A stretch of 64,000 nt of DNA from Candidatus Woesearchaeota archaeon (GTDB lineage Archaea > Nanobdellota > Nanobdellia > Woesearchaeales > B29-G15). Where the stretch lies: positions 4,205-68,204 of the forward strand of contig JAFCCU010000005.1 of the NCBI GenBank assembly GCA_017610005.1, written 5' to 3'. The notes beneath the pieces were generated by a model. It was not told the DNA's origin. It saw only the letters and a program-made list of their open reading frames with translations, and ran no database searches. Positions within the stretch are counted from its first letter, which is position 1. Every line of letters begins with the position of its first letter. The position numbers and the translations under genes were made by a program. Positions 5,828 through 27,325 of the stretch are shown one piece after another.

Positions 5828-6367
5828 ATGGAAAAATGTCCCTCTTGTAAAAGAACATTAGAACTTTATCGTCTAGATTTTATGCCACGACCTTTGTGTG
5901 AAAGTTGTTTATGCAAGAATATTGAGAGGAGAGTTAGGCGAGAGATAAGAACTCAATGCCCATTAACTAAGGGAGATACTGTAGTAATTGTAGATGATGG
6001 AAGTAAAGAAGCAAGGATGCTTGAATATATATTAAAGCGGTTGGAGAAGGATTTCCCAATTAAACTTTCAAAAAGTAAAGTAAAAAATGCAAAATATGCA
6101 TTACCTATTTCTTTAGATGAAGCAGCAGTAAGTTTTCTTGAACATGTAATAAATAAAAAAGGAAAAAAAATAGGATTTGCCCCATTAATGGTAGTTCATT
6201 CTGAAGAAGTAATTTTATTTACAAAATTAAAGAAACTTGGGGGAAAAAAGAAATTGATTAAGGGAAATATTAAAGATCATCTTGATACCCTTGAGAAAAA
6301 ACATGCGCAACTAAAATTTTCAATAATTAGATTTTCTAAAGAGTTAGAAGTAAGAAGTCTGAAGTAA
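5828..6367 (+). CDS. Degenerate TtuA/TtcA-like protein (Zn-binding N-terminus, eroded PP-loop)
   Basis: CPSC...LCESC followed by RRVRREI..., GDTVVIVDDGSKEA where SGGKDS is expected; C-terminus runs into the heptamer array. Confidence 0.5.
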   Translation: MEKCPSCKRTLELYRLDFMPRPLCESCLCKNIERRVRREIRTQCPLTKGDTVVIVDDGSKEARMLEYILKRLEKDFPIKLSKSKVKNAKYALPISLDEAAVSFLEHVINKKGKKIGFAPLMVVHSEEVILFTKLKKLGGKKKLIKGNIKDHLDTLEKKHAQLKFSIIRFSKELEVRSLK

Positions 6368-6637
6368 GAAGTCTGAAGTCTGAAGTAAGAAGTCTGAAGT
6401 CTGAAGTAAGAAGTAAGAAGTCTGAAGTCTGAAGTCTGAAGTAAGAAGTTAGAAGTAAGAAGTCTGAAGTCTGAAGTCTGGAGTGAAAAACAATATCAAC
6501 TATACCTTAAACCTTATACCTTAACGGTCTGGAGTCTGGAGTCTGGAGTGAAAAATATTATTTCTATATACCTTAAACTGTAAACCCTAAACTGTTCTCA
6601 GTATATATTAATACTTTAGACTGCAGACTTTAAACTG
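6340..6637 (+). repeat. Largest heptamer element: 21 tandem units, two linker modules and an inverted arm
   Basis: GAAGTCT/GAAGTAA/GAAGTTA at 6340-6486; GTGAAAAA-ACCTTA modules; GGAGTCT x3; TAGACTG/CAGACTT/TAAACTG arm. Confidence 0.97.
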
Positions 6638-12506: not shown

Positions 12507-12560
12507 AACTATACTAATACACTATTTTATATATAAAAGTTATGATAAATCAAGGATTTA

Positions 12561-12595
12561 TGTCTGAAGTTAGAAGTCCGAAGTGAAAAATACTA
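12561..12595 (+). repeat. Short heptamer array with GTGAAAAATACT linker
   Basis: TGTCT GAAGTTA GAAGTCC GAAGTGAAAAATACT. Confidence 0.8.
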
Positions 12596-12606
12596 TTTTT
12601 TAAAGC

Positions 12607-13872
12607 TCAAAAGGGTTTTACTTTGGTGAAATAATCATTAATGCTTTTTAAATGGGTTTTTTCGTTTTTTATTTGTTTATTTTTCATAATTACCTTGCCG
12701 TTAATTATGCTTAATTCTACATCTGATCCATTGGATGAGTAGATAATATGGGAAATAATGGTTTCTTTTTTAGCTGGGAAGAATTTTGGTTGATTTATTG
12801 GGATACCTATAATATCTGCTAAAAAATTTTTTTCAATTCTTCCAGTTTTTAAACGTAAGATTTCTGCTGCATTTCTAGTTGCCATATCTAGAATGGCCTG
12901 AGTGGGCATTACAGTTGAATCATTTAAAGAATATTTGTGTAGCAAGCCAGTTGCCTTCATCTCTTCAAAGATATCTTGATTGTTGTTACTTGCATTGCTG
13001 TCTGTTCCTAAACTCACGTTTGTTTTAAATTTTAATAGCTCTGGTACTGGAAGTCTGGCGCCAGATGCAAGTTTAAGATTGCTAACTGGACAATGAACGG
13101 CGCTTGCGCCTGTTTTTGCATAATCTTTGGTTTCATTTAGCCAACAAAGGTGAATCCCAATTGTGTTTTTATTTAGGAAATTTATACTGTTTAGATAATC
13201 AATTACTCCTTTACCTGTTTTCTTTTTAATAAATTCTGCTTCGGGTTTTGTTTCAAGAATGTGAATAAAATTAAGCATGTTAAGTTCATTTGCAAGGCTT
13301 GCACCTGCTTTTAGTAAATCTTCTGAACAAGTATTTGGGGCGTGAATCCCAATAGCTTGGGTGATTAATTCTCGATTTTTTAATTTTGGAATCAGATCTT
13401 TTGTTATCTTCAATTCTTCTTTTATTTTGTTTTTATCAAATAAATCAAGCATGCAATAACTTAAAAATGCCCTGATCCCAATTGTTTCTGCAGCTTCTGC
13501 CACGCGTTCAATCCCAAAAGAGTGATCACAAAACGTGGTTGTGCCTGCTTTTACACTTTCAAGCGCAGTGAGTAGTGATCCATAATAAACATCTTTGATT
13601 TTTCTTTCGGCGGGCCAAACTTTCTTTTCAAGCCAATCTTTTAGTGGGAGATCATCTGAAATTCCTCTTAGAAGGTTTGTGCAAGTGTGAGTATGAAGAT
13701 TGATTAGGCCAGGCATAATCAACATGTCAGAGCAGTCAATTGCTGGACATTTCTCATCGGCCTTTCCAATTTTAACAATCTGATTATCTTGGATCAATAT
13801 GTCCTGGTGCTCCAGCACCTCGCGTTTATCATTTTGCGTTACAATGAAGCGGCAGTTTTTAAGTAATAACAT
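12607..13872 (-). CDS. mtaD: Amidohydrolase, MTA/SAH deaminase-like
   Basis: PGLINLHTH, IHILET, VHCPVSNLKLASG, LGTDSNASNN motifs. Confidence 0.85.
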   Translation of the reverse strand: MLLLKNCRFIVTQNDKREVLEHQDILIQDNQIVKIGKADEKCPAIDCSDMLIMPGLINLHTHTCTNLLRGISDDLPLKDWLEKKVWPAERKIKDVYYGSLLTALESVKAGTTTFCDHSFGIERVAEAAETIGIRAFLSYCMLDLFDKNKIKEELKITKDLIPKLKNRELITQAIGIHAPNTCSEDLLKAGASLANELNMLNFIHILETKPEAEFIKKKTGKGVIDYLNSINFLNKNTIGIHLCWLNETKDYAKTGASAVHCPVSNLKLASGARLPVPELLKFKTNVSLGTDSNASNNNQDIFEEMKATGLLHKYSLNDSTVMPTQAILDMATRNAAEILRLKTGRIEKNFLADIIGIPINQPKFFPAKKETIISHIIYSSNGSDVELSIINGKVIMKNKQIKNEKTHLKSINDYFTKVKPF

Positions 13873-13905
13873 AAAAGAAAAAGAAAGGAAGAAGTATATA
13901 AATTT

Positions 13906-13982
13906 TTACTTGTTCCCAGCATAAAAAATCTTTTCTATTGAGACATCTTCTGGGGTGAAGCCACCGGTTCTTTGGTGGAAGT
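13906..13982. repeat. 77-bp exact duplicate of the 3' end of ORF 15665-15934
   Basis: Identical base for base to 15665-15741. Confidence 0.97.
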
Positions 13983-14051
13983 GATAATGTGCTGAAGATC
14001 TTCCGATTTTTCTTCAAGAACTCATTTATATAGCCTTGAGCGGACTTTGTT

Positions 14052-15215
14052 ATGTTGCTTTCAACTCAGGATATTGAACGATTATCTCCAGGATATAAGC
14101 GATTTTATTATGGAGAAAGTGAATTGTTAGATGCGCCCATAGATCTTTATCAGAGAGGAAGGCTCCGAGATCTCTATAATCGAACAGATAATCTTGGAAG
14201 ATTGATTGGAACAGATTTAGAAAGTCTAAAAACAAGTAAAAGCAGATATAAAAATATCTTTTTTTGGAGAGGGATTTCTTATTATATGGGGCTAAGATTA
14301 AGCCCATTAGATAAATTGAGTTACTTGGCAAAAGATGAGCGGGAAGTAAAATCTGATTTATTAGAATCCATAATTCAAATAGATGATTTATTAGAAAATG
14401 AAATGGAGGAGACTGGAGATTTGACTTATTCTCTTTTAGATCATCAAAGAAATAATTTCCTGGTTATTTTTAAGTCCTATTTTTCTCAATTATTTAGTGA
14501 TCCTGGGTTAATTGAATATTTCCAACCAATGGTTGAAATGTTAAGTGAGGCAGTTTCAAACTTGTATTACTTTTGTTTATCCAAACCACCTATTTTTAAT
14601 CATCTTAATAATAAATTGTTAAGTGATCTCCTCCCATGGATAAAATTAGATCACTCAAGTTGGTGGAGAGAGTTAGATGATCCATTGAAAATATTATTTT
14701 ATTCGGCTAACGTGATTGAAGAAAGAAGAAAACCCTTTGAAGTAGTTATTAATCCTTTTTCTGGTGCTTTAGAGCTTGGATTTGCATTAAAAACTGTTAG
14801 TGAAATTCTTAATAACCCTGTAGTGAATGATATTGTCTTTTTTGATTATTCGGTTTATGATAGGGGGAAAATAATTGATATTTCTGAATCTGCAGATGAG
14901 ATTCTTTCAGATATAATCCAAGGGAGCTTTCCAAAACCTTTAGCAGATTCAAGTATGTCTAGAATGTGGGGAAAAGAATCATTTATTCTTGATGATAATC
15001 TAACGACGGGGAAAACTCTTTTTGGCATGAAGAGAAGCTTATTAAAATCAGGCATAAGTCCAAGAGTTTTTACTGGGGCAATTGAACTCGGGAGAGAGGA
15101 TAGGGCAGGCAGGTTTAGTGTGGGTGTTCTGGAAAATTTAGATTTCATGCCCATAGGGGATCGCATGAGTGCGGGAAAAAAGGCTAGAAAAATACTGGAG
15201 CCATTTATAAAATGA
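14052..15215 (+). CDS. Orphan protein with a C-terminal phosphoribosyltransferase-like motif (cassette cargo)
   Basis: FILDDNLTTGKTL resembles the type I PRTase PRPP-binding loop; lies between the 77-bp direct repeats. Confidence 0.6.
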   Translation: MLLSTQDIERLSPGYKRFYYGESELLDAPIDLYQRGRLRDLYNRTDNLGRLIGTDLESLKTSKSRYKNIFFWRGISYYMGLRLSPLDKLSYLAKDEREVKSDLLESIIQIDDLLENEMEETGDLTYSLLDHQRNNFLVIFKSYFSQLFSDPGLIEYFQPMVEMLSEAVSNLYYFCLSKPPIFNHLNNKLLSDLLPWIKLDHSSWWRELDDPLKILFYSANVIEERRKPFEVVINPFSGALELGFALKTVSEILNNPVVNDIVFFDYSVYDRGKIIDISESADEILSDIIQGSFPKPLADSSMSRMWGKESFILDDNLTTGKTLFGMKRSLLKSGISPRVFTGAIELGREDRAGRFSVGVLENLDFMPIGDRMSAGKKARKILEPFIK

Positions 15216-15664
15216 TAATGTTTATTAATATTAAGCACTTAAGGAAAATTAGAATGGGATCTCCAATATTCTCTCCTGAGGTAGGTACTTGGGTTAGAAT
15301 CAATACTAGGCCACCCCTAGTTGTAAGCCCTCTGAAATGCTCGTCTCAATATGATGTTGCTAGAGATTTGGTTGATATTGTGATGGATAGGATAATAACA
15401 AGTCATTACTTGAATAATGGTGAAATGAGTGATCCTGATTGGGATTCTACACTTGTGAAAATGGGAGATTTTATTAGTAGGAGATATCAAGGTGATTTAA
15501 GAGAAGATTTAATAGATTATGTTGGTGGCAGAATCTCTGTTTTAGAGGGTTTGATGGTACATTTGGGGCCCAGTGAGAAAGTTGAGCAATTTGCAATAGA
15601 AAATAGAAGAATCCCTTGGGAATGGGTATCCCTAAGTGGCTCTAGAATAAGGCTTTATGAGTAG
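15212..15664 (+). CDS. Hypothetical protein (cassette cargo)
   Basis: 150-aa ORF overlapping the previous stop by 4 nt; its stop codon abuts the direct repeat at 15665. Confidence 0.55.
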   Translation: MIMFINIKHLRKIRMGSPIFSPEVGTWVRINTRPPLVVSPLKCSSQYDVARDLVDIVMDRIITSHYLNNGEMSDPDWDSTLVKMGDFISRRYQGDLREDLIDYVGGRISVLEGLMVHLGPSEKVEQFAIENRRIPWEWVSLSGSRIRLYE

Positions 15665-15934
15665 TTACTTGTTCCCAGCATAAAAAATCTTTTCTATTGA
15701 GACATCTTCTGGGGTGAAGCCACCGGTTCTTTGGTGGAAGTTTGGTTTAGCTTCAACTTGCTTCTCAATTGGTCTTTGAATTTCAATTGGTCTTTCCATT
15801 TGTTTTTCCACTTGTCTTTGAACCATACTTGGATTGGAATCTCCCTTAAGATGGGCAATTTCTCGTCTTAACTCTGATAACTCAGAAAACACCTTTGAAA
15901 AATTAGATTCTAGCATACTTGTTATTTGTTCCAT
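15665..15934 (-). CDS. Small coiled-coil protein downstream of ftsZ
   Basis: 89-aa ORF 10 nt after ftsZ; coiled-coil N-terminus and TGGFTPEDVSIEKIFYAGNK tail. Confidence 0.7.
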   Translation of the reverse strand: MEQITSMLESNFSKVFSELSELRREIAHLKGDSNPSMVQRQVEKQMERPIEIQRPIEKQVEAKPNFHQRTGGFTPEDVSIEKIFYAGNK

Positions 15935-15944
15935 TAAATATCAC

Positions 15945-16982
15945 CTATATTAAGTTGTTAATATCGTTGACCATTTCTTTTCTTGGGCCCTCTTCTTGGA
16001 ACTTGCCTAGAATCCAAGGGGATTTTACTCCAGTTATAATTGTCATGACAGTAATCTTCCCAACCATATTCTCATCGATGCGTGCCCCCCAAATGACATT
16101 TGCATCTGGATCAAGTTCTTGAGTTATTTGTTCACCAACTTGAGTAATATCATCAAGAGTCAAGTCTGGCCCCCCTTCAATGTGAATTAGGGCCCCCCTT
16201 GCTCCTTTGTAATCAATTTCAAGCAAGGGATTTTTTAGTGCTAAATCCACTGCTTGTTGTACGTGTTTATCACCTGCGCTAGACCCTACGCCAATGGCAG
16301 CAACTCCTCCATTAGTCATAATGGCTTTAACGTCTGCATAATCAAGATTAACTAAGGAAGGCACTGAGATTGTTTCTACAATTCCTTTAATCATTGTTGC
16401 AATTAATTCATTTGCAATTGCAAATGCTTGTTGCACTGGTAAATTCCCTGCGATTTGCACAAGTCTATTATTATCAACCACAATAACTGTATCGCAGTGT
16501 GCCCTCATTTGTGAGAGCCCAAATTCTGCTTTATCCATTCTAGCTCTTTCTATTGAAAATGGCATTGTAACTGTTCCAATAGTTATTGCTTTCATTTCAG
16601 AAGTTAATTTTCCAATGACTGGAGCAGCACCTGTTCCAGTGCCTCCGCCCATGCCTGCGCATAAAAATACCATATCAACGCCTTGCATTAATTCCCTCAT
16701 TTCATATAAAGATTCTTCTGCAGCACTACTTCCTTGTTTTGGATAGCCACCAGCTCCAAGGCCCTTTGTGACATTTTTTCCAATTAGCAGTTTTTTATCT
16801 GCTTCACTGATATTCAAATGTTGTTGATCAGTGTTACATGCAATAATTTCAGCTCCTTTGATCCCTTTTTTATATAACCAAGAAACCATATTACAACCTG
16901 CTCCACCAATCCCAAGAACTTTAATATTAGCTTGACCTATATCAAGATTTCCAGAATGTTCCTCAACTTCTAAAATAGACAT
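15945..16982 (-). CDS. ftsZ: Cell division protein FtsZ (paralogue A)
   Basis: IKVLGIGGAG, NTD, GMGGGTGTG signature, NLDYAD T7 loop; ATG at 16982 follows a GAGG SD-like site (ORF track starts at 17018). Confidence 0.97.
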   Translation of the reverse strand: MSILEVEEHSGNLDIGQANIKVLGIGGAGCNMVSWLYKKGIKGAEIIACNTDQQHLNISEADKKLLIGKNVTKGLGAGGYPKQGSSAAEESLYEMRELMQGVDMVFLCAGMGGGTGTGAAPVIGKLTSEMKAITIGTVTMPFSIERARMDKAEFGLSQMRAHCDTVIVVDNNRLVQIAGNLPVQQAFAIANELIATMIKGIVETISVPSLVNLDYADVKAIMTNGGVAAIGVGSSAGDKHVQQAVDLALKNPLLEIDYKGARGALIHIEGGPDLTLDDITQVGEQITQELDPDANVIWGARIDENMVGKITVMTIITGVKSPWILGKFQEEGPRKEMVNDINNLI

Positions 16983-17061
16983 TTTAAACCTCGTTAATCT
17001 CTTTTTATTTGCATACACATAACTTATTAATAAATGTTACGTTTTTGTATACTAGTATATC

Positions 17062-17117
17062 TCAGTCTGAAGTCTGAAGTCTGAAGTCTGAAGTCTGAAG
17101 TCTAAAGTTTGAAGTGT
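17062..17117 (+). repeat. Heptamer array (8 units) in the ftsZ/trmI divergent promoter region
   Basis: TCAGTCT, GAAGTCT x5, AAAGTTT, GAAGTGT. Confidence 0.95.
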
Positions 17118-17170
17118 GACTGGCTTCAAGGTATCTGGGGAGGGTTTTTTGGAAAGGTTTTTAATAAGGT

Positions 17171-17926
17171 GTGGTTTTTAAATTATTAATGACGAAAATC
17201 AAGAAAGGCGAATGGGTGCTTTTACTATCTAAAGAACATTCTTATCTTCTTAAGGCAGATGGTAAGATGCATACAAGTGATGGTATTGTGGAGTTAAAGG
17301 ATTGTAAAGAATTTGGAACTTATGTAAAAACTCACAAGGATTTTGAATTTGCAGTTGTAAAACCTAATATTAATGATTTATTAAATAAGAAAATGAAGCG
17401 AATGCCCGCTTCAATTCATAAAAAAGATTTGGGGTTTATTATTGGTGTAACCGGGCTTCAGAAAGACTGGAAAGTACTGGAAGCTGGAACTGGGTCTGGG
17501 CATGCAACATTATTTTTTGCTGAGCATTGCACAAAAGTTATTTCTTATGAAGTAAGAGAAGATTTTCATAAGCATGTTAAGGATAATTTAGAGCTTTTAA
17601 ATATAAAAAATGTGGAGCTTAGAAATAAGGATATTAAAGAAGGAATTAAAGAAAAAGACTTTGATTTAATTTTACTTGATATGAAAGGGTCTGAAGAAAT
17701 AATTGAAATAGCAACAAAAGCTCTAAAACCTGGTGGTTTTATAGTTATTTACTCTCCTTATATTGAGCAAAGTAAACTTGCTGTTGAGAAATTAACTGAA
17801 CTTGACTTTAATGGGATAGAAACAAGTGAAACAATTTTGCGTACTTGGGATGTTAGAGATCATACACTGCCAAAGCGAGCCGGCATGATGCACACGGCAT
17901 TTATCACGATTGCCCGGAAGGTTTAG
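17171..17926 (+). CDS. trmI: tRNA (adenine-N1)-methyltransferase, TrmI/Gcd14 family
   Basis: VLEAGTGSG SAM motif, ISYEVREDF, ILLDM, YSPYIEQ, HTAFITIARK. Confidence 0.9.
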   Translation: MVFKLLMTKIKKGEWVLLLSKEHSYLLKADGKMHTSDGIVELKDCKEFGTYVKTHKDFEFAVVKPNINDLLNKKMKRMPASIHKKDLGFIIGVTGLQKDWKVLEAGTGSGHATLFFAEHCTKVISYEVREDFHKHVKDNLELLNIKNVELRNKDIKEGIKEKDFDLILLDMKGSEEIIEIATKALKPGGFIVIYSPYIEQSKLAVEKLTELDFNGIETSETILRTWDVRDHTLPKRAGMMHTAFITIARKV

Positions 17927-18788
17927 CCTTTCTTTTCCTTATTATATATGTTGTAATTGGGTATCCTGCGTCAAGAATAATACCTACTCCCAATAGTATT
18001 GCTAATGCTTTGGTAAGGCCTCGAAAAAACAAGTAATCTCTTTGAGCTTCCACTGCAGTATCATACAATTCATCTGAAACTTTTTGCCTTGGATTTAATC
18101 TTGATGCTTCCCCTACAATCAAAGCAGCAGACTCAAGGGATGCAATTGCTGGTTGAAAGGTTTCAACTGTAACTGGCATTCCATAAACTCTCTTTAAATC
18201 ATTTCCTTTAGGGAGATCACGAGCAATTTTCTCAAGGGCTGGTTTTAATGCCTTTATTCTTTCTAAGATATTTGCATATAAATTTATACTATTTGTAGCG
18301 AGACGTATGGCAACTTTAGCATCGCCGGGGTCAGGAAAATCATAAGAGCTGGAAAGGTATTCTTGGGCATTTCCAATCGAATTGATTGCTCCAGAAATCT
18401 TTTCTACATTTCCTTCTTTTGGGAGCTCTTGAAGTGAAGAAATAACTATATCAAGACTTGCCCTTACATCGGCAAATTGGTGCTCAATAATCCCATTTTC
18501 ATCAGTAACCCTGTAATCATTTTCTTCTGGAAGCCCCACCCTTATAATCAATAGGCTGTTTTTAATCATCTCCACTCTTTTTTCTAAAGAGGGCCCTAGG
18601 GTATGACCCTTATAGCTTAATGATTGTGCAATTCTTGCAGCTTCTTGAAGGCTATCTCTTGCGTTTAAGGGATCTGGGTCATCAGAATTCATTTGAAGAT
18701 GGATAATTGAGGCCAGCAAATTTTCATGTACATCATCATAGATCTGGCTTGGGCGAACCTCTCTACTTTCTACCTTATTTGCTCCCAT
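17904..18788 (-). CDS. Helical orphan protein with a C-terminal TM (cassette cargo; possibly frameshifted at its 5' end)
   Basis: Two DPxxA-containing helical halves and a C-terminal hydrophobic helix; the stop lies inside the trmI 3' end. Confidence 0.6.
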   Translation of the reverse strand: MGANKVESREVRPSQIYDDVHENLLASIIHLQMNSDDPDPLNARDSLQEAARIAQSLSYKGHTLGPSLEKRVEMIKNSLLIIRVGLPEENDYRVTDENGIIEHQFADVRASLDIVISSLQELPKEGNVEKISGAINSIGNAQEYLSSSYDFPDPGDAKVAIRLATNSINLYANILERIKALKPALEKIARDLPKGNDLKRVYGMPVTVETFQPAIASLESAALIVGEASRLNPRQKVSDELYDTAVEAQRDYLFFRGLTKALAILLGVGIILDAGYPITTYIIRKRKAKPSGQS

Positions 18789-18898
18789 ACTGCATCATAT
18801 TTAGTCTTATTAAGGTCATAAAAACCCCACAGGGTTCCAATCACTGCAATAATGACCGGGTAAACAATTGCTCTCACAATAGTTTCTTTTTTCCACAT
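18770..18898 (-). CDS. 42-aa TM peptide, probably the separated N-terminus of 17904-18788
   Basis: MWKKETIVRAIVYPVIIAVIGTLWGFYDLNKTKYDAVWEQIR*, overlapping the next ORF by 19 nt in another frame. Confidence 0.4.
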   Translation of the reverse strand: MWKKETIVRAIVYPVIIAVIGTLWGFYDLNKTKYDAVWEQIR

Positions 18899-18970
18899 GA
18901 AAAGGGAGAAGAGAGTATTATTTAAAAAAGTAGTTATTGTAGTAAGTTCATATTTCTATTAAGGGGTTAT

Positions 18971-19033
18971 ACCTTGCCCAAGCGAGCAGGCATAATGCGC
19001 CTCGCATTTATCACTGTGGCAAGAAAGGTTTAG
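18971..19033 (+). pseudogene. Diverged duplicate of the trmI 3' end (21 codons including the stop)
   Basis: Encodes TLPKRAGIMRLAFITVARKV* versus TLPKRAGMMHTAFITIARKV* at 17864-17926; 48/63 nt identical. Confidence 0.9.
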
Positions 19034-19082
19034 ACGTATACAACAAACCTTTAAAAAGCTCCTTTCATCCCCAATTAATACA

Positions 19083-19547
19083 ATGGATGTAAATTTAGTC
19101 TCAACAATAACTGCAGAGCATCCTGCTTTTGAAGCAACAAAAGATAATTTAGAAGAATTTGTTGTTGGCTTAGGGAAAGCTGTTGAGGGATTTGTCCATA
19201 ATTTTCGTTTAGCGCGGTCGCTTCATGAGCTTGATGATTTAATAAAAGAATATCATGTATCGAGCGCATGGTATAATGGTGACAGATTGTCCATTGAGAT
19301 TGATATAGCATATAAGTCACTAGAAAAAGGATCAATGTATGTAAAATTACGTTTAGGATCTGAAGATACGGGGGCAATAAGTAAGAGGGGGAGATTTACT
19401 ATGGCCCTTATTGATTATTTCAAAGAAAATGGAATGATCCAAAAAACTTGGACTTATGGAGAGGAGAGCTGGTTCAATTTAACTCCCGGAGCACCCGACA
19501 TGTATGGGGACCCTCCAATAAGACCAGATGAAGTAACACCTACATAA
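19083..19547 (+). CDS. Hypothetical orphan protein
   Basis: 154-aa ORF with an upstream TTTAAA promoter-like box. Confidence 0.55.
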   Translation: MDVNLVSTITAEHPAFEATKDNLEEFVVGLGKAVEGFVHNFRLARSLHELDDLIKEYHVSSAWYNGDRLSIEIDIAYKSLEKGSMYVKLRLGSEDTGAISKRGRFTMALIDYFKENGMIQKTWTYGEESWFNLTPGAPDMYGDPPIRPDEVTPT

Positions 19548-19579
19548 TCTTTAAATAGATCTCCTCGTAAAACTTTCTT

Positions 19580-20632
19580 ATGAAAATAATTAAGAGTAAT
19601 TATAAGCATGGTGAGCTTGTAATTAAAATTGAGAATTTGAATGATTTATGGTATTTGTCACAGGTTTTAGAGCCAAGAGATATTGTTAAGGGTAAAACTG
19701 AAAGGAAAATTAGTATTGGTGGTAAGGAAGAAAAAAGGCAAATAAAACGAGTTTGGATTACTCTTTCTTTAGAAGTTGAAAAAATTGAATTTCATAAGTA
19801 TTCAGATGTTTTAAGAGTTTCAGGAAAAATTACTGAGGGCACAGATGATATACCCCATGGTCAATATCACACAATTAATGTTGAACCAGGAATTATTTTG
19901 ACAATTACAAAAGTTGAATGGCTTGATTATCAAAAAAAATACATTAAAGAGTCTTTAGAAAATGCTCCGGAATTTTTACTTTGTGTGCTTGATCGCGATG
20001 AAGCTTGCTTTGCACTTTTAACGGGGCAAGGATATAGGATTTTGAGTTCTTTTAAGGGAGAAGTTGAAAATAAGCGGGTTAAAGATAAAAAACCAACTCA
20101 CTTCTATGGAGATGTAATAAAATTAATTGAAGATTACAATAAACGGCATAAAGTAAAATCCATAATTATTGCGTCTCCTTCTTTTTGGAAAGAGGATTTA
20201 TTAAAGGAAATTAAAAGTCCAGAATTAAAACAAAAAATTATTCAAGCAACTTGTAATCACACTGGGCAGCAAGGGATTAATGAAGTGTTAAAACGAGATG
20301 AACTACAAACTGCATTAAAAGAAGATAGAATTAGTCATGAAATGGTAATTGTTGAGCAATTATTAAAAGAAATTTCTTTAGATAAAAATGCGGCTTATGG
20401 TATGAAAGAAACAATTAAAGCAACAAATGCTGGGGCGGTATTAACTTTGCTTGTGACAGATGAACTAATAAGAGAAACAAGGCAAAAAGAAACATATGCT
20501 GGCCTTGCAAATATCATGAAAGCAGCACAACATAGCGGTGCCAAAATTGAAATTATTGAATCTGAGAACCCTGGCGGGAAAAAGCTTGATGGTCTTGGAG
20601 GCATTGGCGCAATTCTGAGGTACAAGTTATGA
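19580..20632 (+). CDS. pelA: mRNA surveillance protein Pelota
   Basis: NLNDLWYLSQVL, LRVSGKI, HTINVE, LDGLGGIGAILRY. Confidence 0.96.
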   Translation: MKIIKSNYKHGELVIKIENLNDLWYLSQVLEPRDIVKGKTERKISIGGKEEKRQIKRVWITLSLEVEKIEFHKYSDVLRVSGKITEGTDDIPHGQYHTINVEPGIILTITKVEWLDYQKKYIKESLENAPEFLLCVLDRDEACFALLTGQGYRILSSFKGEVENKRVKDKKPTHFYGDVIKLIEDYNKRHKVKSIIIASPSFWKEDLLKEIKSPELKQKIIQATCNHTGQQGINEVLKRDELQTALKEDRISHEMVIVEQLLKEISLDKNAAYGMKETIKATNAGAVLTLLVTDELIRETRQKETYAGLANIMKAAQHSGAKIEIIESENPGGKKLDGLGGIGAILRYKL

Positions 20633-20723
20633 GTCTAAAGTTTAAAGTTCAAAGTCCAAAGTCCCTTCTTACTTCAAACTTCTTACTTCAAACTTCTTAC
20701 TTCAGACTTCTTACTTCAAACTG
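20630..20723. repeat. Heptamer array with an inverted 14-bp-period arm
   Basis: TGAGTCT AAAGTTT AAAGTTC AAAGTCC AAAGTCC, then repeated ACTTCTT ACTTCAA units; begins at the pelota stop. Confidence 0.92.
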
Positions 20724-20733
20724 TAGGTGACGT

Positions 20734-21615
20734 ATGAGTTGGGTTTTGTTTTCAATAATTGCAGCTGTTGTTTGGGCAATTTGTAATATTATTGATAAAT
20801 ATTTGATTGATAGATGGTTTACTGATCCAGAACCGGCATCATTAACATTTACTATTTTTGCAATACTTTCAGGTATTGGCGCTCTAATTGTTGTAGGATT
20901 TCCAATAATCCCTTTCATGGATATTTTTTGGAGTGTACTTGCAGGATCCTTTTTGCTATTTATGGTTATTTTTTACTTTAAGGCGTTGCAAACTGGCGAA
21001 GCAAGCCGAGTTATGGCTTTATTTTGGGCAGCCCCAGTTTTTGTTGCATTTTTTGGAGCTGTGTTTTTAGGAGAGATTTTCTTGCCATTAACTTACCTGG
21101 GGATATTTTTAATGGTGGCAGGAGCTGTGGCAATTTCCTATCATGGGGGCAAATTCAAATTTAATAAGGCTTTTTGGTGGATAATGGCTTCAGGTATTGT
21201 GCATGGATTTCAGGTAATAATCACAAAATATCTGCTTAATAAATATGATTTTTGGACAGTTGTGGGATATACAAGAATTGGAGTATTGCCTCTGGCAATT
21301 CCAGTTATCATCTGGTTAATTCCAGGCTATAAAAAAGTTGTAAAAAAACATGGATTAAAGGTAGTATACACTCAAGTTTTTAATGATTCGATTAATTTAA
21401 TTGCAATTATTTTTAATTATGCTGCAATGGCAATTGGCACAGCTACTTTAGTTAATGCTTTATCTTCTTTAACACCTTTCTTTGTTTTGCTTTTTGCAGC
21501 AATATTAAGCATTTGGTTTCCTAAGATTATAAGTGAAGAAATTAAAGGTAGCACAGTAATACTCAAGATATTTGCAATCACAATGATAATTGCGGGAGCA
21601 ATTTTAATTACTTAG
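20734..21615 (+). CDS. EamA/DMT family transporter
   Basis: About ten TM helices in two repeats; YFKALQTGEASRV and FLGE motifs. Confidence 0.9.
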   Translation: MSWVLFSIIAAVVWAICNIIDKYLIDRWFTDPEPASLTFTIFAILSGIGALIVVGFPIIPFMDIFWSVLAGSFLLFMVIFYFKALQTGEASRVMALFWAAPVFVAFFGAVFLGEIFLPLTYLGIFLMVAGAVAISYHGGKFKFNKAFWWIMASGIVHGFQVIITKYLLNKYDFWTVVGYTRIGVLPLAIPVIIWLIPGYKKVVKKHGLKVVYTQVFNDSINLIAIIFNYAAMAIGTATLVNALSSLTPFFVLLFAAILSIWFPKIISEEIKGSTVILKIFAITMIIAGAILIT

Positions 21616-22251
21616 AACTTCAGTAAAGGTTCCTAGCTCTAAGATATCTTCTTCACAAAGAATGTGGACTTGATGTTGAATTGCTTGGTATACTGTGGGC
21701 ACTTCATACGTTGGTTTCCCATTTTGACCTAAATGGTTCCAAATTTGCTGAATTAGATAAGTCCCAGCCCCATCTGTTAAAATTGTTGTGCCCTTGAATC
21801 TCTCAGTATCTGATTTTAAGAGTTGATAAGCTTTCCCAAGTGGTTTAACAAGCTGTTCAAGCTCTCCTTCTTTTCCTTCTTTAGGATGAACTAAGGATAT
21901 TGAATAAAGTAGATTTTCAGGAGCTCCAATAACATGGCTCCAACTTGATTGGGGGAGACTGAACCATCCTAATTCTTGACTCTTTTCAGTTACTTGCCGA
22001 TTTGCATAACATAATCTTTTGAACTCTTCTTCAAAAAGTGGATTTTCAATAAATGCCTCAAACATGTTCTTTTCGTCCCAACTATTAAATGAAAGTTGGT
22101 TTAATCCTATTTCATCTCTTAAAAGTTGAATTCCTAAAAATCCTGCTCCCTGCCTAAAGAATGCTTCTTGTTCGCCCCCTGGGTCATTAAGAGCTTCAAA
22201 TTCAGGGACCTTCCCAGGTGTTACGGTTTGATTCCATACATATAATACCAT
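21604..22251 (-). CDS. Tandem ABM-like (dimeric alpha+beta barrel) domain protein
   Basis: Two repeats of V.PGK..EFE / HPKEGKEGELE followed by GFLG/RFKG and W.. motifs. Confidence 0.5.
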   Translation of the reverse strand: MVLYVWNQTVTPGKVPEFEALNDPGGEQEAFFRQGAGFLGIQLLRDEIGLNQLSFNSWDEKNMFEAFIENPLFEEEFKRLCYANRQVTEKSQELGWFSLPQSSWSHVIGAPENLLYSISLVHPKEGKEGELEQLVKPLGKAYQLLKSDTERFKGTTILTDGAGTYLIQQIWNHLGQNGKPTYEVPTVYQAIQHQVHILCEEDILELGTFTEVLSN

Positions 22252-22323
22252 TGTGATAACTAATGAGGATTAATTTATTAAGCTTTAGAAACCTTTATTA
22301 GAAACCTAATTAAAAGTTGATTT

Positions 22324-23433
22324 ATGCACTGGGGCCATGTTGTAAAGAATAAAGAACTTGGTGAACTTTATGCAAGCGTTGTTATTAGATTTTTTGCAGT
22401 TTCTATGATCATGATTTTTACCCCATTATATCTTTATAACCTTAATTTTTCTATTGTGCAAATATTCATGTTTTATGGATGTATGGCATTATCTCATGCA
22501 TTTGGGGTTTTTTTAGGGGGACAATTTTCTTCAAAATATGGGCTTAAACATTCAATGTTAATTAGTATTCCAATTATGATTGCATATTATTTATTGCTGA
22601 TATCTTTGGGAAAAATTCCAAATCTTTATTGGTTGGCAGCGATATTGTTTGGGATATCTAATTCAATATTTTATATAGGGTACCATACTGATTTTTCAAA
22701 ATCAAGTGAAGTTAAAAAAAGAGGGGAACAAATTGGCTTTTCAATGATTCTAACTTCTATTTCAAGAGCATTAGGCCCATTAATCGGTGGTGTGATTGTA
22801 GTATTATTTGGATTTCCAACACTTCTTTTAATCGTGTGTTTTTTACTTCTTGCATCAGTGGTGCCATTGTTTTTCTCAAATGAGATTCATGAACAAATTG
22901 ATTTTTCGTATAAAAAAATTTTCAAACATAAAAGTTGGAGAGATTATTTAGCTTACCTCGGCTGGGGAATTGAAGGATACTCTAGGTCTATTGTGTGGCC
23001 TTTGTTTGTATTTATTTTTATAGTTTCTTCGTACACGGTTATTGGAAGCGTAACAACTTTAAGCTTGATTGCATGCACTTTATTTATTTTTATTGTGGGG
23101 AGAGTTTCTGATATTAATAGAAGAACACTTTTAACAACTGGAGTATACCTTAATTTTGGAATTTGGATTATTAGATCTTTAGTAAATGCACCTATTCAGG
23201 TATTTGTAATTGACACCGCCGGCGGGGTAAATAGACCCTTAATCACAGTGCCAAGTGACGCATTAAGCTATGATAAGTCTGATGGGAAATCTCACTTAGA
23301 ATATATTATGTTTAGGGAATATTCAATTCACTTAGGAGGATTATTATTATGTATGTTTATGATTATTTTTAATTCTCTTCCTTTTGGTATTTATATTGCA
23401 GCAGGAGCTTCACTGTTATACCTCCTTTTTTAG
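22324..23433 (+). CDS. MFS transporter
   Basis: Multi-pass TM; KRGEQIG, GPLIGG and GRVSDINRR motifs. Confidence 0.88.
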   Translation: MHWGHVVKNKELGELYASVVIRFFAVSMIMIFTPLYLYNLNFSIVQIFMFYGCMALSHAFGVFLGGQFSSKYGLKHSMLISIPIMIAYYLLLISLGKIPNLYWLAAILFGISNSIFYIGYHTDFSKSSEVKKRGEQIGFSMILTSISRALGPLIGGVIVVLFGFPTLLLIVCFLLLASVVPLFFSNEIHEQIDFSYKKIFKHKSWRDYLAYLGWGIEGYSRSIVWPLFVFIFIVSSYTVIGSVTTLSLIACTLFIFIVGRVSDINRRTLLTTGVYLNFGIWIIRSLVNAPIQVFVIDTAGGVNRPLITVPSDALSYDKSDGKSHLEYIMFREYSIHLGGLLLCMFMIIFNSLPFGIYIAAGASLLYLLF

Positions 23434-23468
23434 AAAATTTTAAATAAATTAAATAGGGAATAAGAAAT

Positions 23469-23714
23469 ATGACAAAATACTGGTTTAGAAGAAGAAAAGG
23501 ACTTTTTACAAAAGATTTAGGGTGGGGTTGGACTCCAATAAGTTTAGAAGGTTGGGCGGTTGTGACAATCACTTTAATTTTAATCTTTTTATCATATTCC
23601 TTTTGGGACATTAAAAGTGCAGAGTATGGGAGAGGAATTGGGTTTTTAGTCACTTTAATTATTCTAATTGTTGTGTCTGGGGCGATTTCTGAGTGGAAGA
23701 CACAGAAAGATTAA
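23469..23714 (+). CDS. Small two-TM membrane protein
   Basis: YWFRRR..GWGWTPISLEGW followed by two hydrophobic helices. Confidence 0.7.
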   Translation: MTKYWFRRRKGLFTKDLGWGWTPISLEGWAVVTITLILIFLSYSFWDIKSAEYGRGIGFLVTLIILIVVSGAISEWKTQKD

Positions 23715-23740
23715 TAAAAAACTAAACGAATGGCAATAAT

Positions 23741-24466
23741 ATGTCTGAACTAAATGCTAGAATGAATATGCATTATAAGTTTACTGGGCAGGAGTTCTTG
23801 CACATATTAGTTGTTGCATTAGTAATGGGCTTTATGCTTGGACTTGATGATGGGTTGGTAGACTTTGAACCAATGCATTGGTTTGTTAACCTTTTAATTG
23901 CAATTGTTATTTCTTTAGTTACTATCCTTATTTCAATTACTGCTCAAAAGGCAATGGCACTCATGAAAGGCTATTTAATGGAGCTAAAACTATTTTTATG
24001 GGGGGCTGTTGGAGGAGTAGTTATTGGGCTTGGATCCGTTGGGAATGTGCTCATATTCCCAGCATTTGAATTTATTTTTGTTCATGATGAAGGGTTACGA
24101 CTTGGAAGATTTAGATATGGCTTAAATTATTTTGAAATGGCAACTTGTGTTATGATGGGGCCAATTATTAATTTTGGAATTGCAGTATTAGTAGCAGGGC
24201 TTGCAGGGCCTGAGCCTAGTCTTATTGCGTTAAACATTATGAAAGCAAATGTTTTTTTTGCAATCTCTTCAATGCTTCCAATTCCAAAGACTCCTGGAAG
24301 TTACTTATTTTTTGGAAGCCCATCACTTTTCTTTTGGGTTTTTGCCCCAATCACACTGGGAGGAATACTATTATTTTTCATGCCATTTTGGACTGCCCTA
24401 TTAGTAGGTTTAGTTGGAGGGGCAGCAATTGCAATAACTTACTTTTTTAAGGTTGAATACAGATGA
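23741..24466 (+). CDS. Membrane protein, degenerate M50 peptidase-like
   Basis: GPIINF and MLPIPKTPG resemble M50 regions, but no HExxH motif is present. Confidence 0.5.
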   Translation: MSELNARMNMHYKFTGQEFLHILVVALVMGFMLGLDDGLVDFEPMHWFVNLLIAIVISLVTILISITAQKAMALMKGYLMELKLFLWGAVGGVVIGLGSVGNVLIFPAFEFIFVHDEGLRLGRFRYGLNYFEMATCVMMGPIINFGIAVLVAGLAGPEPSLIALNIMKANVFFAISSMLPIPKTPGSYLFFGSPSLFFWVFAPITLGGILLFFMPFWTALLVGLVGGAAIAITYFFKVEYR

Positions 24467-24780
24467 ATAAAAAAGGATATATTCACTGGTTAATCCCCGT
24501 AACTTTACTAGTTTTAATTACTGGGGCATTAGCTTCAATGATTCTAGATACTAAATTTCTTGGAGTGATTAGTCTTTTAATGGTAGGTGGATGTTGTGGG
24601 CATATAATACATATAAGGAAAAAAATATCATTATTTTCACTTCATATAATCATCCTTGCATTTGTGGTAGGTTTTGCAACTTCTCAAGAATTATTAAGGA
24701 ATATTTGGATATTTATTCTATTTTATGGTTCCCTTGCGTTAGTTTATTATGGGGAGGATTACATTGGGAAAAATAAGTAA
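24463..24780 (+). CDS. Small membrane protein
   Basis: Four short hydrophobic helices; overlaps both neighbours in an operon. Confidence 0.6.
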   Translation: MNKKGYIHWLIPVTLLVLITGALASMILDTKFLGVISLLMVGGCCGHIIHIRKKISLFSLHIIILAFVVGFATSQELLRNIWIFILFYGSLALVYYGEDYIGKNK

Positions 24781-25564
24781 TTTCTCTTTAAAACACACAG
24801 TTGAGTCTGGCCAATTCTTCCAATATGAGAAATTAGGGGAGGGGTATATTATTTGGTTGGATGAGGATATATTCTATGTAGAACAAAAAGAAGATGGACT
24901 TAATTATTCTGGTATCTTGCCTGGGCCCTTAAAATATTATTTGGGAATTGATGATTGTTATGAAAAAATTATTTCAGCAATTTCAAAAGACAAACATATT
25001 AGGCAGGCAATTAAAAATCATCTAGGTATGAGAAACATGCAGCAAAGCTTTTATGAGTGTTTAATTGGTTATGTTTGTTCAGCAAACTCTAATATCCCCA
25101 AGATTAGAAAGAATGTAAAATTATTAGCTGAATTTTTTGGTGAAGAAGTTGAGTTTTTAGGAAAGAAGTATCATTTGTTTCCAAAACCAGGGAAACTAAA
25201 TGATCTTGATAAAATCCTTGAAGCAAAAACAGGATTTAGAGCGAAATATATTTACAAGATAAATAAAATTGTAGATGAGGATTGGATTAGAGAGATTAGA
25301 AGAAAAGATTACAAAGAAGCTAAAGAGATGTTAATGGCACTTCCTGGCGTAGGCCCCAAAATTGCTGATTGTGTGTGTTTATTCTCATTGCATCACGCCC
25401 AAGCAGTGCCAGTTGATGTGTGGATAAGAAGGGTTGTGACTGAATTATACTTTGATAACAAACCTGTTAAAGATGAAGAGATAATTAAATTTATGCAGGA
25501 ATATTTTGGCAAATATGCTGGCTACGCAGCGCAGTTTTTATTTTATTTTAAGAGAAAGCAGTAG
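24749..25564 (+). CDS. ogg: 8-oxoguanine DNA glycosylase (OGG1-like, HhH-GPD)
   Basis: SGQFF, SANSNIPKI, GFRAKYI, LPGVGPKIADC, VPVDVW. Confidence 0.9.
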   Translation: MGRITLGKISNFSLKHTVESGQFFQYEKLGEGYIIWLDEDIFYVEQKEDGLNYSGILPGPLKYYLGIDDCYEKIISAISKDKHIRQAIKNHLGMRNMQQSFYECLIGYVCSANSNIPKIRKNVKLLAEFFGEEVEFLGKKYHLFPKPGKLNDLDKILEAKTGFRAKYIYKINKIVDEDWIREIRRKDYKEAKEMLMALPGVGPKIADCVCLFSLHHAQAVPVDVWIRRVVTELYFDNKPVKDEEIIKFMQEYFGKYAGYAAQFLFYFKRKQ

Positions 25565-25597
25565 ATTTATAAAATAGAAGCATAATTCTCCCTAACA

Positions 25598-26536: not shown

Positions 26537-27180
26537 GAGAAATACAAACCGGAGTATTTGAAGGAAATAGGAAACTGTATACTTTAAACAAGATTAAGGG
26601 CAACCCGGTTTATGGTGAGCCTTTTGTAAATCAAAACGGAAAAGAGTTTAGAGAATGGAATCCAAGCAGAAGCAAACTTGCAGCAGCAATATTAAAGGGT
26701 ATGGAAGGAATTAAAATTGACGAAAAAACAACTGTGCTTTATTTGGGGGCTGCTTCAGGCACAACAGTTTCTCATGTTGCTGATATCTGTAAATGGGTTT
26801 TCGCATTAGAGTTTTCAGTTGAGACATTTTCAGATTTATTACTTGTTGCAGAAAAAAGAAAAAATATAATTCCTTTGCTTGCGGATGCAACAATGCCAGA
26901 AGAATATTTCCATAGAGTAAAGGCAGTTGACTTTTTATACCAAGATATTGCACAAAAACAACAAGTAGAGATATTTGAGAGAAATTGTAGATTATTCTTA
27001 AAACCTGGTGGACTTGGATTTTTATGTGTTAAAGCAAGAAGTATTGATGTTTCAAAACACCCAAAGAAAATTTTTGGAGAAGTTAAAGAGCAATTAAAAA
27101 ATTCTTTTAGAGTTCTTGATAATAGAACAATGCAACCTTTTCAGCGAGATCATGCAGCTTTTCTAGTACAAAGACGTTAG
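26533..27180 (+). CDS. flpA: Fibrillarin (rRNA/tRNA 2'-O-methyltransferase)
   Basis: REWNPSRSKLAAA, VLYLGAASGTTVSHVAD, YQDIAQ, VKARSID. Confidence 0.96.
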   Translation: MREIQTGVFEGNRKLYTLNKIKGNPVYGEPFVNQNGKEFREWNPSRSKLAAAILKGMEGIKIDEKTTVLYLGAASGTTVSHVADICKWVFALEFSVETFSDLLLVAEKRKNIIPLLADATMPEEYFHRVKAVDFLYQDIAQKQQVEIFERNCRLFLKPGGLGFLCVKARSIDVSKHPKKIFGEVKEQLKNSFRVLDNRTMQPFQRDHAAFLVQRR

Positions 27181-27266
27181 AAGTCTGAAGTAAGAAGTTT
27201 GAAGTAAGAAGTTTGAAGTAAGAAGTTTGAAGTAAGAAGTGAAAAACACTTATTTACCTTAACAGT
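27180..27266 (+). repeat. Heptamer array (9 units, 14-bp higher-order period) with GTGAAAAACACT/ACCTTAAC linker
   Basis: GAAGTCT, alternating GAAGTAA/GAAGTTT, GAAGTGA; begins at the fibrillarin stop. Confidence 0.95.
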
Positions 27267-27325
27267 TTGTAGAATTGTTAACAGTGTTTCTAGGAACAAA
27301 TTGAAGGATTCTTGAATTCTCTAAA

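What the first reader, a model, noticed from the sequence alone, without database searches (positions are those of the whole stretch)
13906..15741. 1.68-kb two-gene cassette bounded by a perfect 77-bp direct repeat
Seen: 13906-13982 equals 15665-15741 exactly, and the repeat begins at the stop codon of ORF 15665-15934. The insert holds a TTTATATA box and two coupled ORFs, the second ending with no gap at the repeat. Deleting the insert plus one copy restores a compact ftsZ - 89aa - mtaD arrangement. Identity implies a recent event. Caveat (established): 77 is one of the default SPAdes k-mer sizes, so an assembly artefact must be excluded.
Basis: partly seen in the sequence, partly recalled or inferred. 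Interest (0 to 1): 0.65.

Follow-up and report, generated by a model that had tools for sequence, protein, structure and literature searches.

The report
Small repeat-flanked gene cassette, archaeal chromosome
A 1.7-kb two-gene cassette sits between cell-division gene ftsZ and a deaminase gene of a small archaeon, bracketed by two identical 77-base copies of the end of a neighbouring gene; related cassettes in other archaea are bracketed the same way, so it looks like a tiny mobile element of an undescribed type, not an assembly error.

Summary
13906-13982 equals 15665-15741 exactly (77 bp), and it is the only long exact repeat in the window. The repeat is the last 77 nt, stop codon included, of an 89-aa gene downstream of ftsZ. 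A related archaeon has the compact ftsZ / small gene / deaminase order with nothing in between.

The insert (13983-15664) has its own TATA box and two genes: ORF1 (387 aa, helical N-terminal part plus a phosphoribosyltransferase-fold C-terminal domain) and ORF2 (about 136 aa, helical).

The closest relatives of this gene pair are also flanked by perfect direct repeats made of the 3' end of a host gene. One is 28 bp in a RIO kinase gene; the other is 41 bp at the end of a giant protein gene. Both are seen in several independent assemblies and neither length is an assembler k-mer size. No integrase or transposase is present.

I read it as a real, recent insertion of a small mobile cassette (about 0.85). 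The most likely route is a single crossover of a circular form at a short stretch of homology. No reads were available, so the k=77 artefact is not formally excluded and the mechanism is inferred.

The parts
13906..13982 (-). Left copy of the 77-bp direct repeat. It is an orphan copy of the last 24 codons plus stop of the 89-aa gene, and lies 3 nt from the TATA box (13895-13902, minus strand) of the MtaD-like gene. There is no start codon in frame; a TGA lies 11 codons upstream.
13983..14051 (+). Cassette leader and promoter (69 nt). It holds the motif TGAAGATCTTCCGATTTTTCT (13993-14013), which contains the perfect palindrome GAAGATCTTC, and a TTTATATA box at 14025-14032. The motif is conserved 19/21 upstream of the homologous cassette in L003 and 12/12 (ATCTTCCGATTT) in L015.
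14052..15215 (+). ORF1, 387 aa. The N-terminal part is helical and of unknown function. The C-terminal domain (about 225-387) has a type I phosphoribosyltransferase fold with a PRPP-loop-like motif, FILDDNLTTGKT. It belongs to a rare family: 46 representatives among 1.84 billion proteins.
15254..15664 (+). ORF2, about 136 aa (an alternative upstream ATG at 15212 would give 150 aa). It is predicted as a helical bundle with no match to known folds or families. It is the conserved partner of ORF1 in all homologous loci. Its stop codon abuts the right repeat copy.
15665..15741 (-). Right copy of the 77-bp direct repeat. It is the 3' end in use of the intact 89-aa gene.
15665..15934 (-). Target gene: an 89-aa protein downstream of ftsZ with no confident family assignment. 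Its only homologue (P0005, 60% identity) lies between ftsZ and the amidohydrolase gene in L004.
12607..13872 (-). Left flanking gene: an amidohydrolase of the MtaD/DadD/TRZ-ATZ kind. Scores are below the equivalog cut-offs, so the exact substrate is not assigned.
15945..17018 (-). Right flanking gene: FtsZ.

Best explanation
The segment 13983-15664 is a genuine, recent insertion of a small mobile two-gene cassette into the chromosome of a DPANN-type (Woesearchaeota-like) archaeon. It lies at the 3' end of the 89-aa gene between ftsZ and the MtaD-like gene. The mobile unit is 1,759 bp: the 1,682-bp insert plus one repeat copy. The two 77-bp copies are the junction repeats left by integration. 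The copy at 15665-15741 completes the 89-aa gene. The copy at 13906-13982 is the displaced original gene end, still next to the MtaD-like promoter. Both host genes therefore stay intact.

Shown: the repeat, the anatomy, the empty arrangement in a relative, and the recurrence of the same architecture around homologous cassettes.

Inferred, mechanism: the most likely route is Campbell-type integration of a circular form, by one crossover within a short stretch identical to the host gene's end. The enzyme would not be encoded in the cassette; it could be host homologous recombination or an integrase acting in trans. The reverse crossover between the repeats would excise the circle.

Inferred, cargo: ORF1 is a phosphoribosyltransferase-fold enzyme and ORF2 its obligate small partner. 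They are transcribed from the cassette's own TATA promoter, which lies behind a conserved palindromic operator-like motif. This layout is compatible with a selfish toxin-antitoxin-like or defence-like module, but that is not demonstrated.
For: (1) The repeat is exact and has sharp ends.
(2) The empty-site reconstruction leaves the 89-aa protein unchanged. Relative L004 has ftsZ / 67-aa homologue / 76 bp with a TATA box / amidohydrolase.
(3) In L001/L002 the ORF1 homologue (31% identity) and ORF2 homologue are flanked by a perfect 28-bp repeat. Its right copy lies in the 3' end of a convergent RIO kinase gene. The contig is a MEGAHIT k141 assembly. Both junctions are covered by Logan contigs of two further runs.
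(4) In L006/L007/L008 the PRAI-fused ORF1 homologue plus a 121-aa gene are flanked by a repeat of 41 exact bases (46 near-exact). This repeat is the last 13 codons of the upstream 2143-aa gene. Three assemblies from three samples show it.
(5) In both cases the orphan copy keeps an in-frame stop at or just after the repeat...NKGKS* in L001, and TGA in place of TAG in L006. That is what a displaced original gene end should look like.
(6) These repeats are the only exact direct repeats of 20 bp or more, 200-6000 bp apart, in about 118 kb of examined sequence, apart from satellite arrays and two 20-21-bp pairs in the window.
(7) Close homologues sit in five different neighbourhoods: 89-aa gene/ftsZ, GCD14, RIO kinase, ParE and a giant protein gene.
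(8) The insert is the most deviant 1.68-kb stretch of the window by tetranucleotide use (z about 2.8). Its codon scores are 1.1 and 1.8 sd below the host mean, while GC is the same.
(9) The leader motif is conserved with L003 (19/21, no shuffle out of 2000 reached the score). The insert's left end is therefore a complete native promoter region rather than an arbitrary contig break.
Against: No reads or independent assembly of this organism could be found. Neither junction is directly verified, and 77 equals a default SPAdes k-mer size. No integrase, transposase or terminal inverted repeats lie in the cassette, and none was found among window ORFs of 150 aa or more. The recombination enzyme is therefore unidentified. 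The three repeats share no common core sequence, which is unusual for related site-specific elements. No circular or empty-site form was seen for L001, though only low-depth contigs were available. More distant homologues of the gene pair (L009, L010, L011, L015, L016) have no flanking repeats, so the pair is not always visibly mobile.
Confidence: 0.6

Rival explanations
1. The insertion is real, but the repeats are a target-site duplication made de novo at each insertion. Staggered cuts 28-77 nt apart would be filled in, by machinery that may be encoded by ORF1/ORF2 themselves. The link with gene 3' ends would then reflect selection: in these compact genomes only insertions that duplicate a gene end leave both neighbours intact.
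For: Repeat lengths (28, 41, 77) and sequences differ at every site. Five different targets are used by close relatives. There is no integrase and no shared att core. The same two genes are the only content in all three complete cases. In the window, only 3 nt separate the 89-aa stop codon from the MtaD-like TATA box, so selection alone would force the left junction to where it is.
Against: To my knowledge, no prokaryotic transposition system makes such long and variable duplications. There are no terminal inverted repeats. ORF1 shows only a phosphoribosyltransferase fold and ORF2 no nuclease or integrase fold. In L006 both copies are followed by an in-frame stop (TAG and TGA), which fits a pre-existing gene-end mimic slightly better.
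Confidence: 0.15
2. Assembly artefact tied to k = 77. Two co-occurring strains fork at the 77-mer at 15665-15741, or graph edges were joined without proper handling. The cassette would then be falsely placed between a duplicated k-mer.
For: The repeat is exactly 77 bp with sharp ends, which is a default SPAdes k value (the k value is from established knowledge). No reads were available to check.
Against: A de Bruijn path through a shared 77-mer still needs real 78-mers for all four junctions. Only an unusual gapless concatenation of a dead-end edge would create the duplication. The falsely inserted piece would also have to be precisely a complete promoter plus two-gene unit, from a family that is repeat-flanked in the same way at non-k lengths in MEGAHIT and other assemblies. 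No other k-length repeat occurs in the window.
Confidence: 0.1
3. The cassette exists mainly as a free 1,759-bp circle that carries the 77-bp segment, and most cells have the empty chromosomal site. The assembler threaded the loop into the chromosome.
For: A circle sharing a 77-mer with the chromosome forms a loop in a k=77 graph. This is compatible with an element that excises (inference only).
Against: It needs the same coincidence of a 77-bp shared segment as the integrated state. There is no replication gene in the cassette. The homologous cassettes in L001 and L006 are integrated, with both junctions assembled independently.
Confidence: 0.05
4. A one-off local rearrangement, such as a replication template switch or illegitimate recombination. 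It would have moved a resident gene pair next to the 89-aa gene and duplicated 77 bp, with no mobile element involved.
For: In relative L003 the homologous genes lie in the same neighbourhood, after GCD14 and next to ftsZ. The pair therefore belongs to this lineage's gene pool.
Against: The same architecture recurs around homologous cassettes in two unrelated genomic contexts, which a one-off accident does not explain.
Confidence: 0.05

Closest known systems
Integrative elements bounded by attL/attR that insert into the 3' end of a gene and restore it (prophages, ICEs/IMEs, archaeal integrated plasmids and viruses, tycheposons)
   Same: Direct repeats bracket the element. The repeat is the 3' end of a host gene. 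The gene stays intact and the displaced end lies on the far side. Relatives have an empty site.
   Different: There is no integrase in the element or nearby. The element is only about 1.8 kb with two genes. The targets are protein-coding genes that differ between close relatives, and no shared core sequence is evident.
CIMEs (cis-mobilizable elements): decayed integrative elements that keep attL and attR but have lost integration and transfer genes (PMC5704250)
   Same: The cassette is repeat-flanked and carries no recombination or transfer genes.
   Different: A CIME is a random remnant of a larger element. Here three independent cases contain the same two genes and nothing else, which suggests the pair itself is the unit. 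No cognate autonomous element was found.
ShosTA-type toxin-antitoxin / defence pairs with a phosphoribosyltransferase toxin (PMC11961720, PMC12961424)
   Same: It is a two-gene module with a phosphoribosyltransferase-fold protein plus a small partner. It has its own promoter with a palindromic operator-like motif and a patchy, mobile distribution.
   Different: The window's ORF1 gives no PADLOC hit. Only the distant homologue P0008 matches ShosT, and only over the PRPP loop. ORF2 is not DprA-like. One homologue is fused to a TrpF-like isomerase, which hints at a metabolic role.
Transposons, insertion sequences and casposons
   Same: The insertion is flanked by a duplication of target sequence.
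   Different: The duplication is 28-77 bp and variable, against 2-15 bp and fixed. There are no terminal inverted repeats and no transposase or Cas1.

Membership tests
att-flanked site-specific integrative element | Element bracketed by direct repeats (attL/attR) that include the 3' end of the target gene, which remains intact | tested here: met
att-flanked site-specific integrative element | Integrase (tyrosine or serine recombinase) encoded in the element | tested here: not met
   ORF1 and ORF2 have no Pfam, NCBIfam, PHROGs or PADLOC recombinase hit. The folds are a phosphoribosyltransferase and a helical bundle.
att-flanked site-specific integrative element | Empty target site in related genomes | tested here: met
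   L004 has ftsZ / 67-aa homologue / amidohydrolase without the cassette. It is a different species, so this is not a same-population polymorphism.
att-flanked site-specific integrative element | Excision to a circular form and regenerated attB | not testable with these tools
   No runs hold the window. Only low-depth contigs were available for L001, and no joints were seen.
CIME (cis-mobilizable element) | Retains flanking att repeats and lacks integration and transfer genes | tested here: met
CIME (cis-mobilizable element) | Derived from, and mobilised by, a cognate autonomous element with the same att specificity | tested here: inconclusive
   No integrase was found among window ORFs of 150 aa or more, but only 64 kb of the genome is visible. 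An identical two-gene content in three cases argues against random decay.
DDE transposon / IS / casposon | Terminal inverted repeats, a short duplication of fixed length, and a transposase or Cas1 | tested here: not met
Type I phosphoribosyltransferase fold (ORF1 C-terminal domain) | PRPP-binding loop motif and a Rossmann-like PRT core | tested here: met
   The motif FILDDNLTTGKT is invariant in its D-D-N, T-T and T positions. The profile hits APRT over the loop at E 0.09. Foldseek matches HGPRT, PyrR and APRT at probability 1.0 but weak E (5e-3), with TM 0.44-0.54 on the target. The model has mean pLDDT 65, so this is fold level only and activity is untested.
ShosTA defence / toxin-antitoxin system | ShosT-family toxin and a DprA-like ShosA partner | tested here: not met
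   There is no PADLOC hit for the window's ORF1 or ORF2. P0008 hits ShosT only over 52 residues. ORF2 has no structural match.
k-mer assembly artefact | Repeat length equals the assembler's k | tested here: met
   The repeat is exactly 77 bp. The assembler used for this contig is unknown.
k-mer assembly artefact | Junctions not supported by reads that reach unique sequence on both sides | not testable with these tools
k-mer assembly artefact | The architecture has no counterpart in independent data | tested here: not met
   Homologous cassettes carry the same architecture with 28-bp and 41-bp repeats in independent assemblies.

The most novel reading that the evidence does not exclude
The ORF1/ORF2 pair with its short leader is a complete, autonomous mobile element of a new kind, about 1.8-2.6 kb. 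It would insert at the ends of genes in DPANN archaea with long, variable target duplications (28-77 bp). The machinery would be unrelated to known integrases and transposases, possibly built on the phosphoribosyltransferase-fold protein.
Probability: 0.12. Interest if true: 0.9.

Novelty: new variant of a known kind. Interest (0 to 1): 0.6.

Why it matters
How DPANN archaea, with tiny and tightly packed genomes, gain and lose genes is poorly understood, and few mobile elements are known in them. This work points to a recurrent family of very small cassettes: the same two uncharacterised genes, no recombinase, always bracketed by a duplicated host gene end. If real, it is either a minimal hitch-hiking element that uses host or trans-acting recombination, or a new insertion mechanism. 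It gives concrete junction sequences for testing excision and integration. It also flags a rare phosphoribosyltransferase-fold protein family, 46 representatives in 1.84 billion proteins, as mobile cargo worth a functional test. For genome curation, it is a case where an exact k-length repeat should not be dismissed as an artefact without looking at relatives.

Tried and rejected
Reads:
- Two searches for public runs holding the window (13000-16800 and 16000-25900) found none.
- Laying Logan contigs of three runs on L001 confirmed both junctions but showed no excision or empty-site joints.

Independent assemblies of the same organism:
- Exact look-ups of ORF1 and the 89-aa protein found nothing.
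- Homologue searches show only the window's own contig at high identity.
- A degenerate DNA pattern for the 89-aa C-terminus found nothing in metagenome or genome collections.
- Profile-based locus searches found nothing new in metagenome or viral contigs, and only the L001 contig in genomes.

Function:
- Pfam, NCBIfam, PADLOC and PHROGs give nothing for the window's ORF1 or ORF2.
- ORF2's model has no structural neighbour.
- The N-terminal half of ORF1 has no match.

Mobility signatures:
- There are no terminal inverted repeats.
- The leader and the repeats show no significant secondary structure.
- I saw no shared core between the three repeats. An 8-nt CTTGTTCC shared by the window and L001 repeats is within chance by my estimate.
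- No tRNA lies nearby; the only tRNA is at 30575-30659.

Other points:
- Integron, casposon and IS readings were rejected for lack of their defining genes and ends.
- More distant homologues (L009, L010, L011, L015, L016) showed no flanking repeats.
- The L001 and L006 leaders do not significantly share the window's leader motif.
Full report
**The observation**

The window carries an exact 77-bp direct repeat at 13906-13982 and 15665-15741. The bases immediately outside differ on both sides, and start-to-start spacing is 1759 bp. Apart from 7-nt satellite arrays, it is the only exact direct repeat of 25 bp or more in the 64-kb window. Chance cannot produce it; by my arithmetic the expectation is about 1e-37.

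The repeat is the last 77 nt, stop codon included, of the minus-strand ORF 15665-15934 (89 aa). The 1682-bp insert holds three things:
- a TTTATATA box at 14025-14032, 19 nt before the ATG of ORF1 (14052-15215, 387 aa);
- ORF1 itself;
- ORF2, whose stop codon (15662-15664) touches the right repeat copy.

Homologues of ORF2 align from the ATG at 15254, not from the overlapping ATG at 15212. The 'coupled' start is therefore probably not the real one.

**Surroundings and host**

The left neighbour (12607-13872, minus strand) is an amidohydrolase of the MtaD/DadD/TRZ-ATZ kind. Its TATA box (13895-13902, minus strand) lies only 3 nt from the left repeat copy. The right neighbours are FtsZ (15945-17018, minus strand) and a GCD14-like methyltransferase.

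The window is an archaeal chromosome. It encodes fibrillarin, Nop5, Pelota, RtcB and two FtsZ paralogues, and has 34.5% GC. The nearest relatives of its proteins are annotated as Woesearchaeota, so I infer a DPANN-type host.

**Is it an insertion?**

Removing the insert and one repeat copy leaves the 89-aa protein unchanged and restores a compact ftsZ / 89-aa / amidohydrolase operon-like row.

The only homologue of the 89-aa protein among 5.8 billion clusters (P0005, 60% identity) lies on L004. There the order is ftsZ, small gene, a 76-bp spacer with a TATA box, then the amidohydrolase gene, with nothing in between. FtsZ is 79% and the amidohydrolase 63% identical to the window's. The compact arrangement is therefore ancestral and the cassette is an addition.

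**What the cassette encodes**

ORF1 has only two homologues by word-indexed search (31-33% identity). A full profile search of 1.84 billion representatives finds 46.
- The C-terminal domain is a type I phosphoribosyltransferase fold. It has a PRPP-loop-like motif, FILDDNLTTGKT, a weak profile match to APRT over that loop, and consistent Foldseek matches to HGPRT, PyrR and APRT at probability 1.0 but with weak E-values.
- The helical N-terminal half matches nothing.
- One homologue (P0006) is fused to a TrpF-like phosphoribosylanthranilate isomerase domain.

ORF2 is a predicted helical bundle with no structural or family match. A small ORF2-like gene follows the ORF1-like gene in every locus examined, so the two form a conserved pair.

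None of Pfam, NCBIfam, PADLOC or PHROGs identifies a recombinase, transposase, replication or viral function in either protein.

**The same architecture recurs in the family**

This is the key result.

- L001/L002 (a Woesearchaeota MAG contig, MEGAHIT k141, plus an independent sample). The homologous pair is bracketed by a perfect 28-bp direct repeat (L001 7855-7882 and 9789-9816). The right copy lies inside the 3' end of a convergent RIO kinase gene. The left copy is an orphan in an intergenic region. Logan contigs from two further runs cover each junction with unique sequence on both sides.
- L006/L007/L008 (three assemblies from three samples). The PRAI-fused homologue plus its 121-aa partner are bracketed by a repeat of 41 exact bases (46 near-exact; L006 5780-5820 and 8427-8467). 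The left copy is the last 13 codons of the upstream 2143-aa gene.

In both cases, joining the gene body to the orphan copy gives an open reading frame that ends at once...NKGKS* in L001, and the same ...KRKS* with TGA in place of TAG in L006. That is what a displaced original gene end should look like.

Across about 118 kb of window and loci, the only exact direct repeats of 20 bp or more at 200-6000 bp spacing, apart from satellite arrays and two 20-21-bp pairs in the window, are these three, and each brackets the cassette.

Close homologues sit in five different neighbourhoods:
- 89-aa gene/ftsZ (window);
- directly after GCD14, next to ftsZ (L003);
- RIO kinase (L001);
- ParE (L013);
- a giant surface-type protein gene (L006).

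More distant homologues of the pair show no flanking repeats.

**Real or artefact?**

No public run or second assembly of this organism could be found.

The indirect case against an artefact is strong.
- A de Bruijn graph path through a shared 77-mer requires real 78-mers at all four junctions. A loop or a free circle would therefore need the same coincidence of a 77-bp shared stretch as a true integrated element. Only an unusual gapless concatenation of a dead-end edge would manufacture an exact k-length duplication (reasoning, not a tool result).
- That accident would have to involve exactly a complete promoter plus two-gene unit, from the one family that is repeat-flanked in the same manner, at non-k lengths, in independent assemblies.
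- The insert's left end is not arbitrary. Its 69-nt leader carries TGAAGATCTTCCGATTTTTCT (13993-14013, containing the palindrome GAAGATCTTC). This is conserved 19/21 upstream of the L003 cassette, and none of 2000 shuffles reached that score. Twelve of twelve bases (ATCTTCCGATTT) recur upstream of the distant homologue in L015.
- Composition fits an accessory gene of the same gene pool. GC is identical, but the insert is the most deviant 1.68-kb stretch by tetranucleotides (z about 2.8) and has below-average codon scores.

I put the probability that the integrated structure is real at about 0.85.

**Mechanism**

Shown: exact repeats made of a host gene's end; both neighbouring genes intact; no terminal inverted repeats; no recombinase in the cassette or among the window's larger ORFs.

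Inferred: the best-established way to obtain long, exact repeats of variable length that consist of the target's 3' end is a single crossover. It would occur between a circular element carrying a copy of that end and the chromosome (Campbell-type integration). It could be catalysed by a trans-acting integrase or by host homologous recombination. Recombination between the repeats would release the circle again. The 100% identity of the 77-bp copies, one of which is non-functional, points to a recent event or ongoing conversion.

The main rival among 'real' readings is a de novo long target duplication made by unknown machinery. The diversity of targets and the lack of a shared core keep that reading alive.

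The cargo's function is untested. A phosphoribosyltransferase-fold protein with a small partner behind a palindromic motif resembles toxin-antitoxin or defence pairs such as ShosTA (PMC11961720). Membership in that family was tested and not met, and the TrpF fusion hints at metabolism.

**Comparison with known systems**

The cassette works like an att-flanked integrative element, and most closely like an integrase-less CIME (PMC5704250). It differs in three ways: it consists of the same two genes in three independent cases, it uses different protein-gene targets, and it has no recognisable cognate integrase. It is not a transposon, IS or casposon.

I class it as a new variant of a known kind. 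There is a modest chance (about 0.12) that it is an autonomous element with a new mechanism.

Noticed in passing
window 1394-1510, 6312-6561, 12553-12599, 17049-17123, 20603-20722, 27152-27268, 51969-52063, 58300-58346, 62263-62323: Arrays of a 7-nt unit (AGTCTGA / AGTAAGA / AGTTAGA, up to about 19 copies) recur in many intergenic regions on either strand. Several end in a shared tail, GTGAAAAAYAYTAT. They look like a genome-wide intergenic repeat family of unknown role. None lies inside the cassette.
   Followed up: partly
window 1569-1665 and 44363-44459 (partial copies at 44299-44349 and 44531-44561): A 97-nt non-coding repeat is 91% identical at two sites 43 kb apart, with partial copies next to the second. 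It has no Rfam match at gathering score. It could be a small RNA gene family or a miniature repeat element.
   Followed up: no
L003 2111-4038: In a relative (FtsZ 75% identical) the cassette family lies 4-20 nt after the GCD14 stop codon, next to ftsZ. The order there is ORF2-like, ORF1-like, then a second diverged ORF2-like gene. The contig ends before a second repeat copy could be seen.
   Followed up: partly
L006 6001-7968 (P0006): One ORF1 homologue is fused to an N-terminal TrpF-like phosphoribosylanthranilate isomerase domain. This hints that the family acts on a phosphoribosyl-amine type substrate.
   Followed up: partly
L009 1237-1278 and 2637-2678: A 42-nt promoter-like segment with a TTTAAATA box is duplicated at 88% identity. 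One copy lies upstream of a GGDEF gene and the other upstream of the ORF1-like gene, so together they bracket a GGDEF gene plus a 117-aa gene.
   Followed up: no
window 13993-14013; L003 2047-2067; L015 about 748-759: An operator-like motif, ATCTTCCGRTTTTT, lies upstream of the ORF1-type operon in three loci whose proteins are only about 30% identical. In the window it is part of the palindrome GAAGATCTTC. This non-coding conservation exceeds that of the proteins.
   Followed up: partly
window 15945-17018 and 39844-40923: Two FtsZ paralogues, about 72-76% identical at DNA level over most of their length, lie 23 kb apart in opposite orientation.
   Followed up: no
window 47271-47348 and 15765-15819: There are in-frame coding tandem repeats. 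An 18-nt unit occurs 4.3 times inside ORF 46263-47537. Units of 12 and 18 nt occur inside the 89-aa target gene, giving the ERPIEIQRPIEKQ stretch.
   Followed up: no
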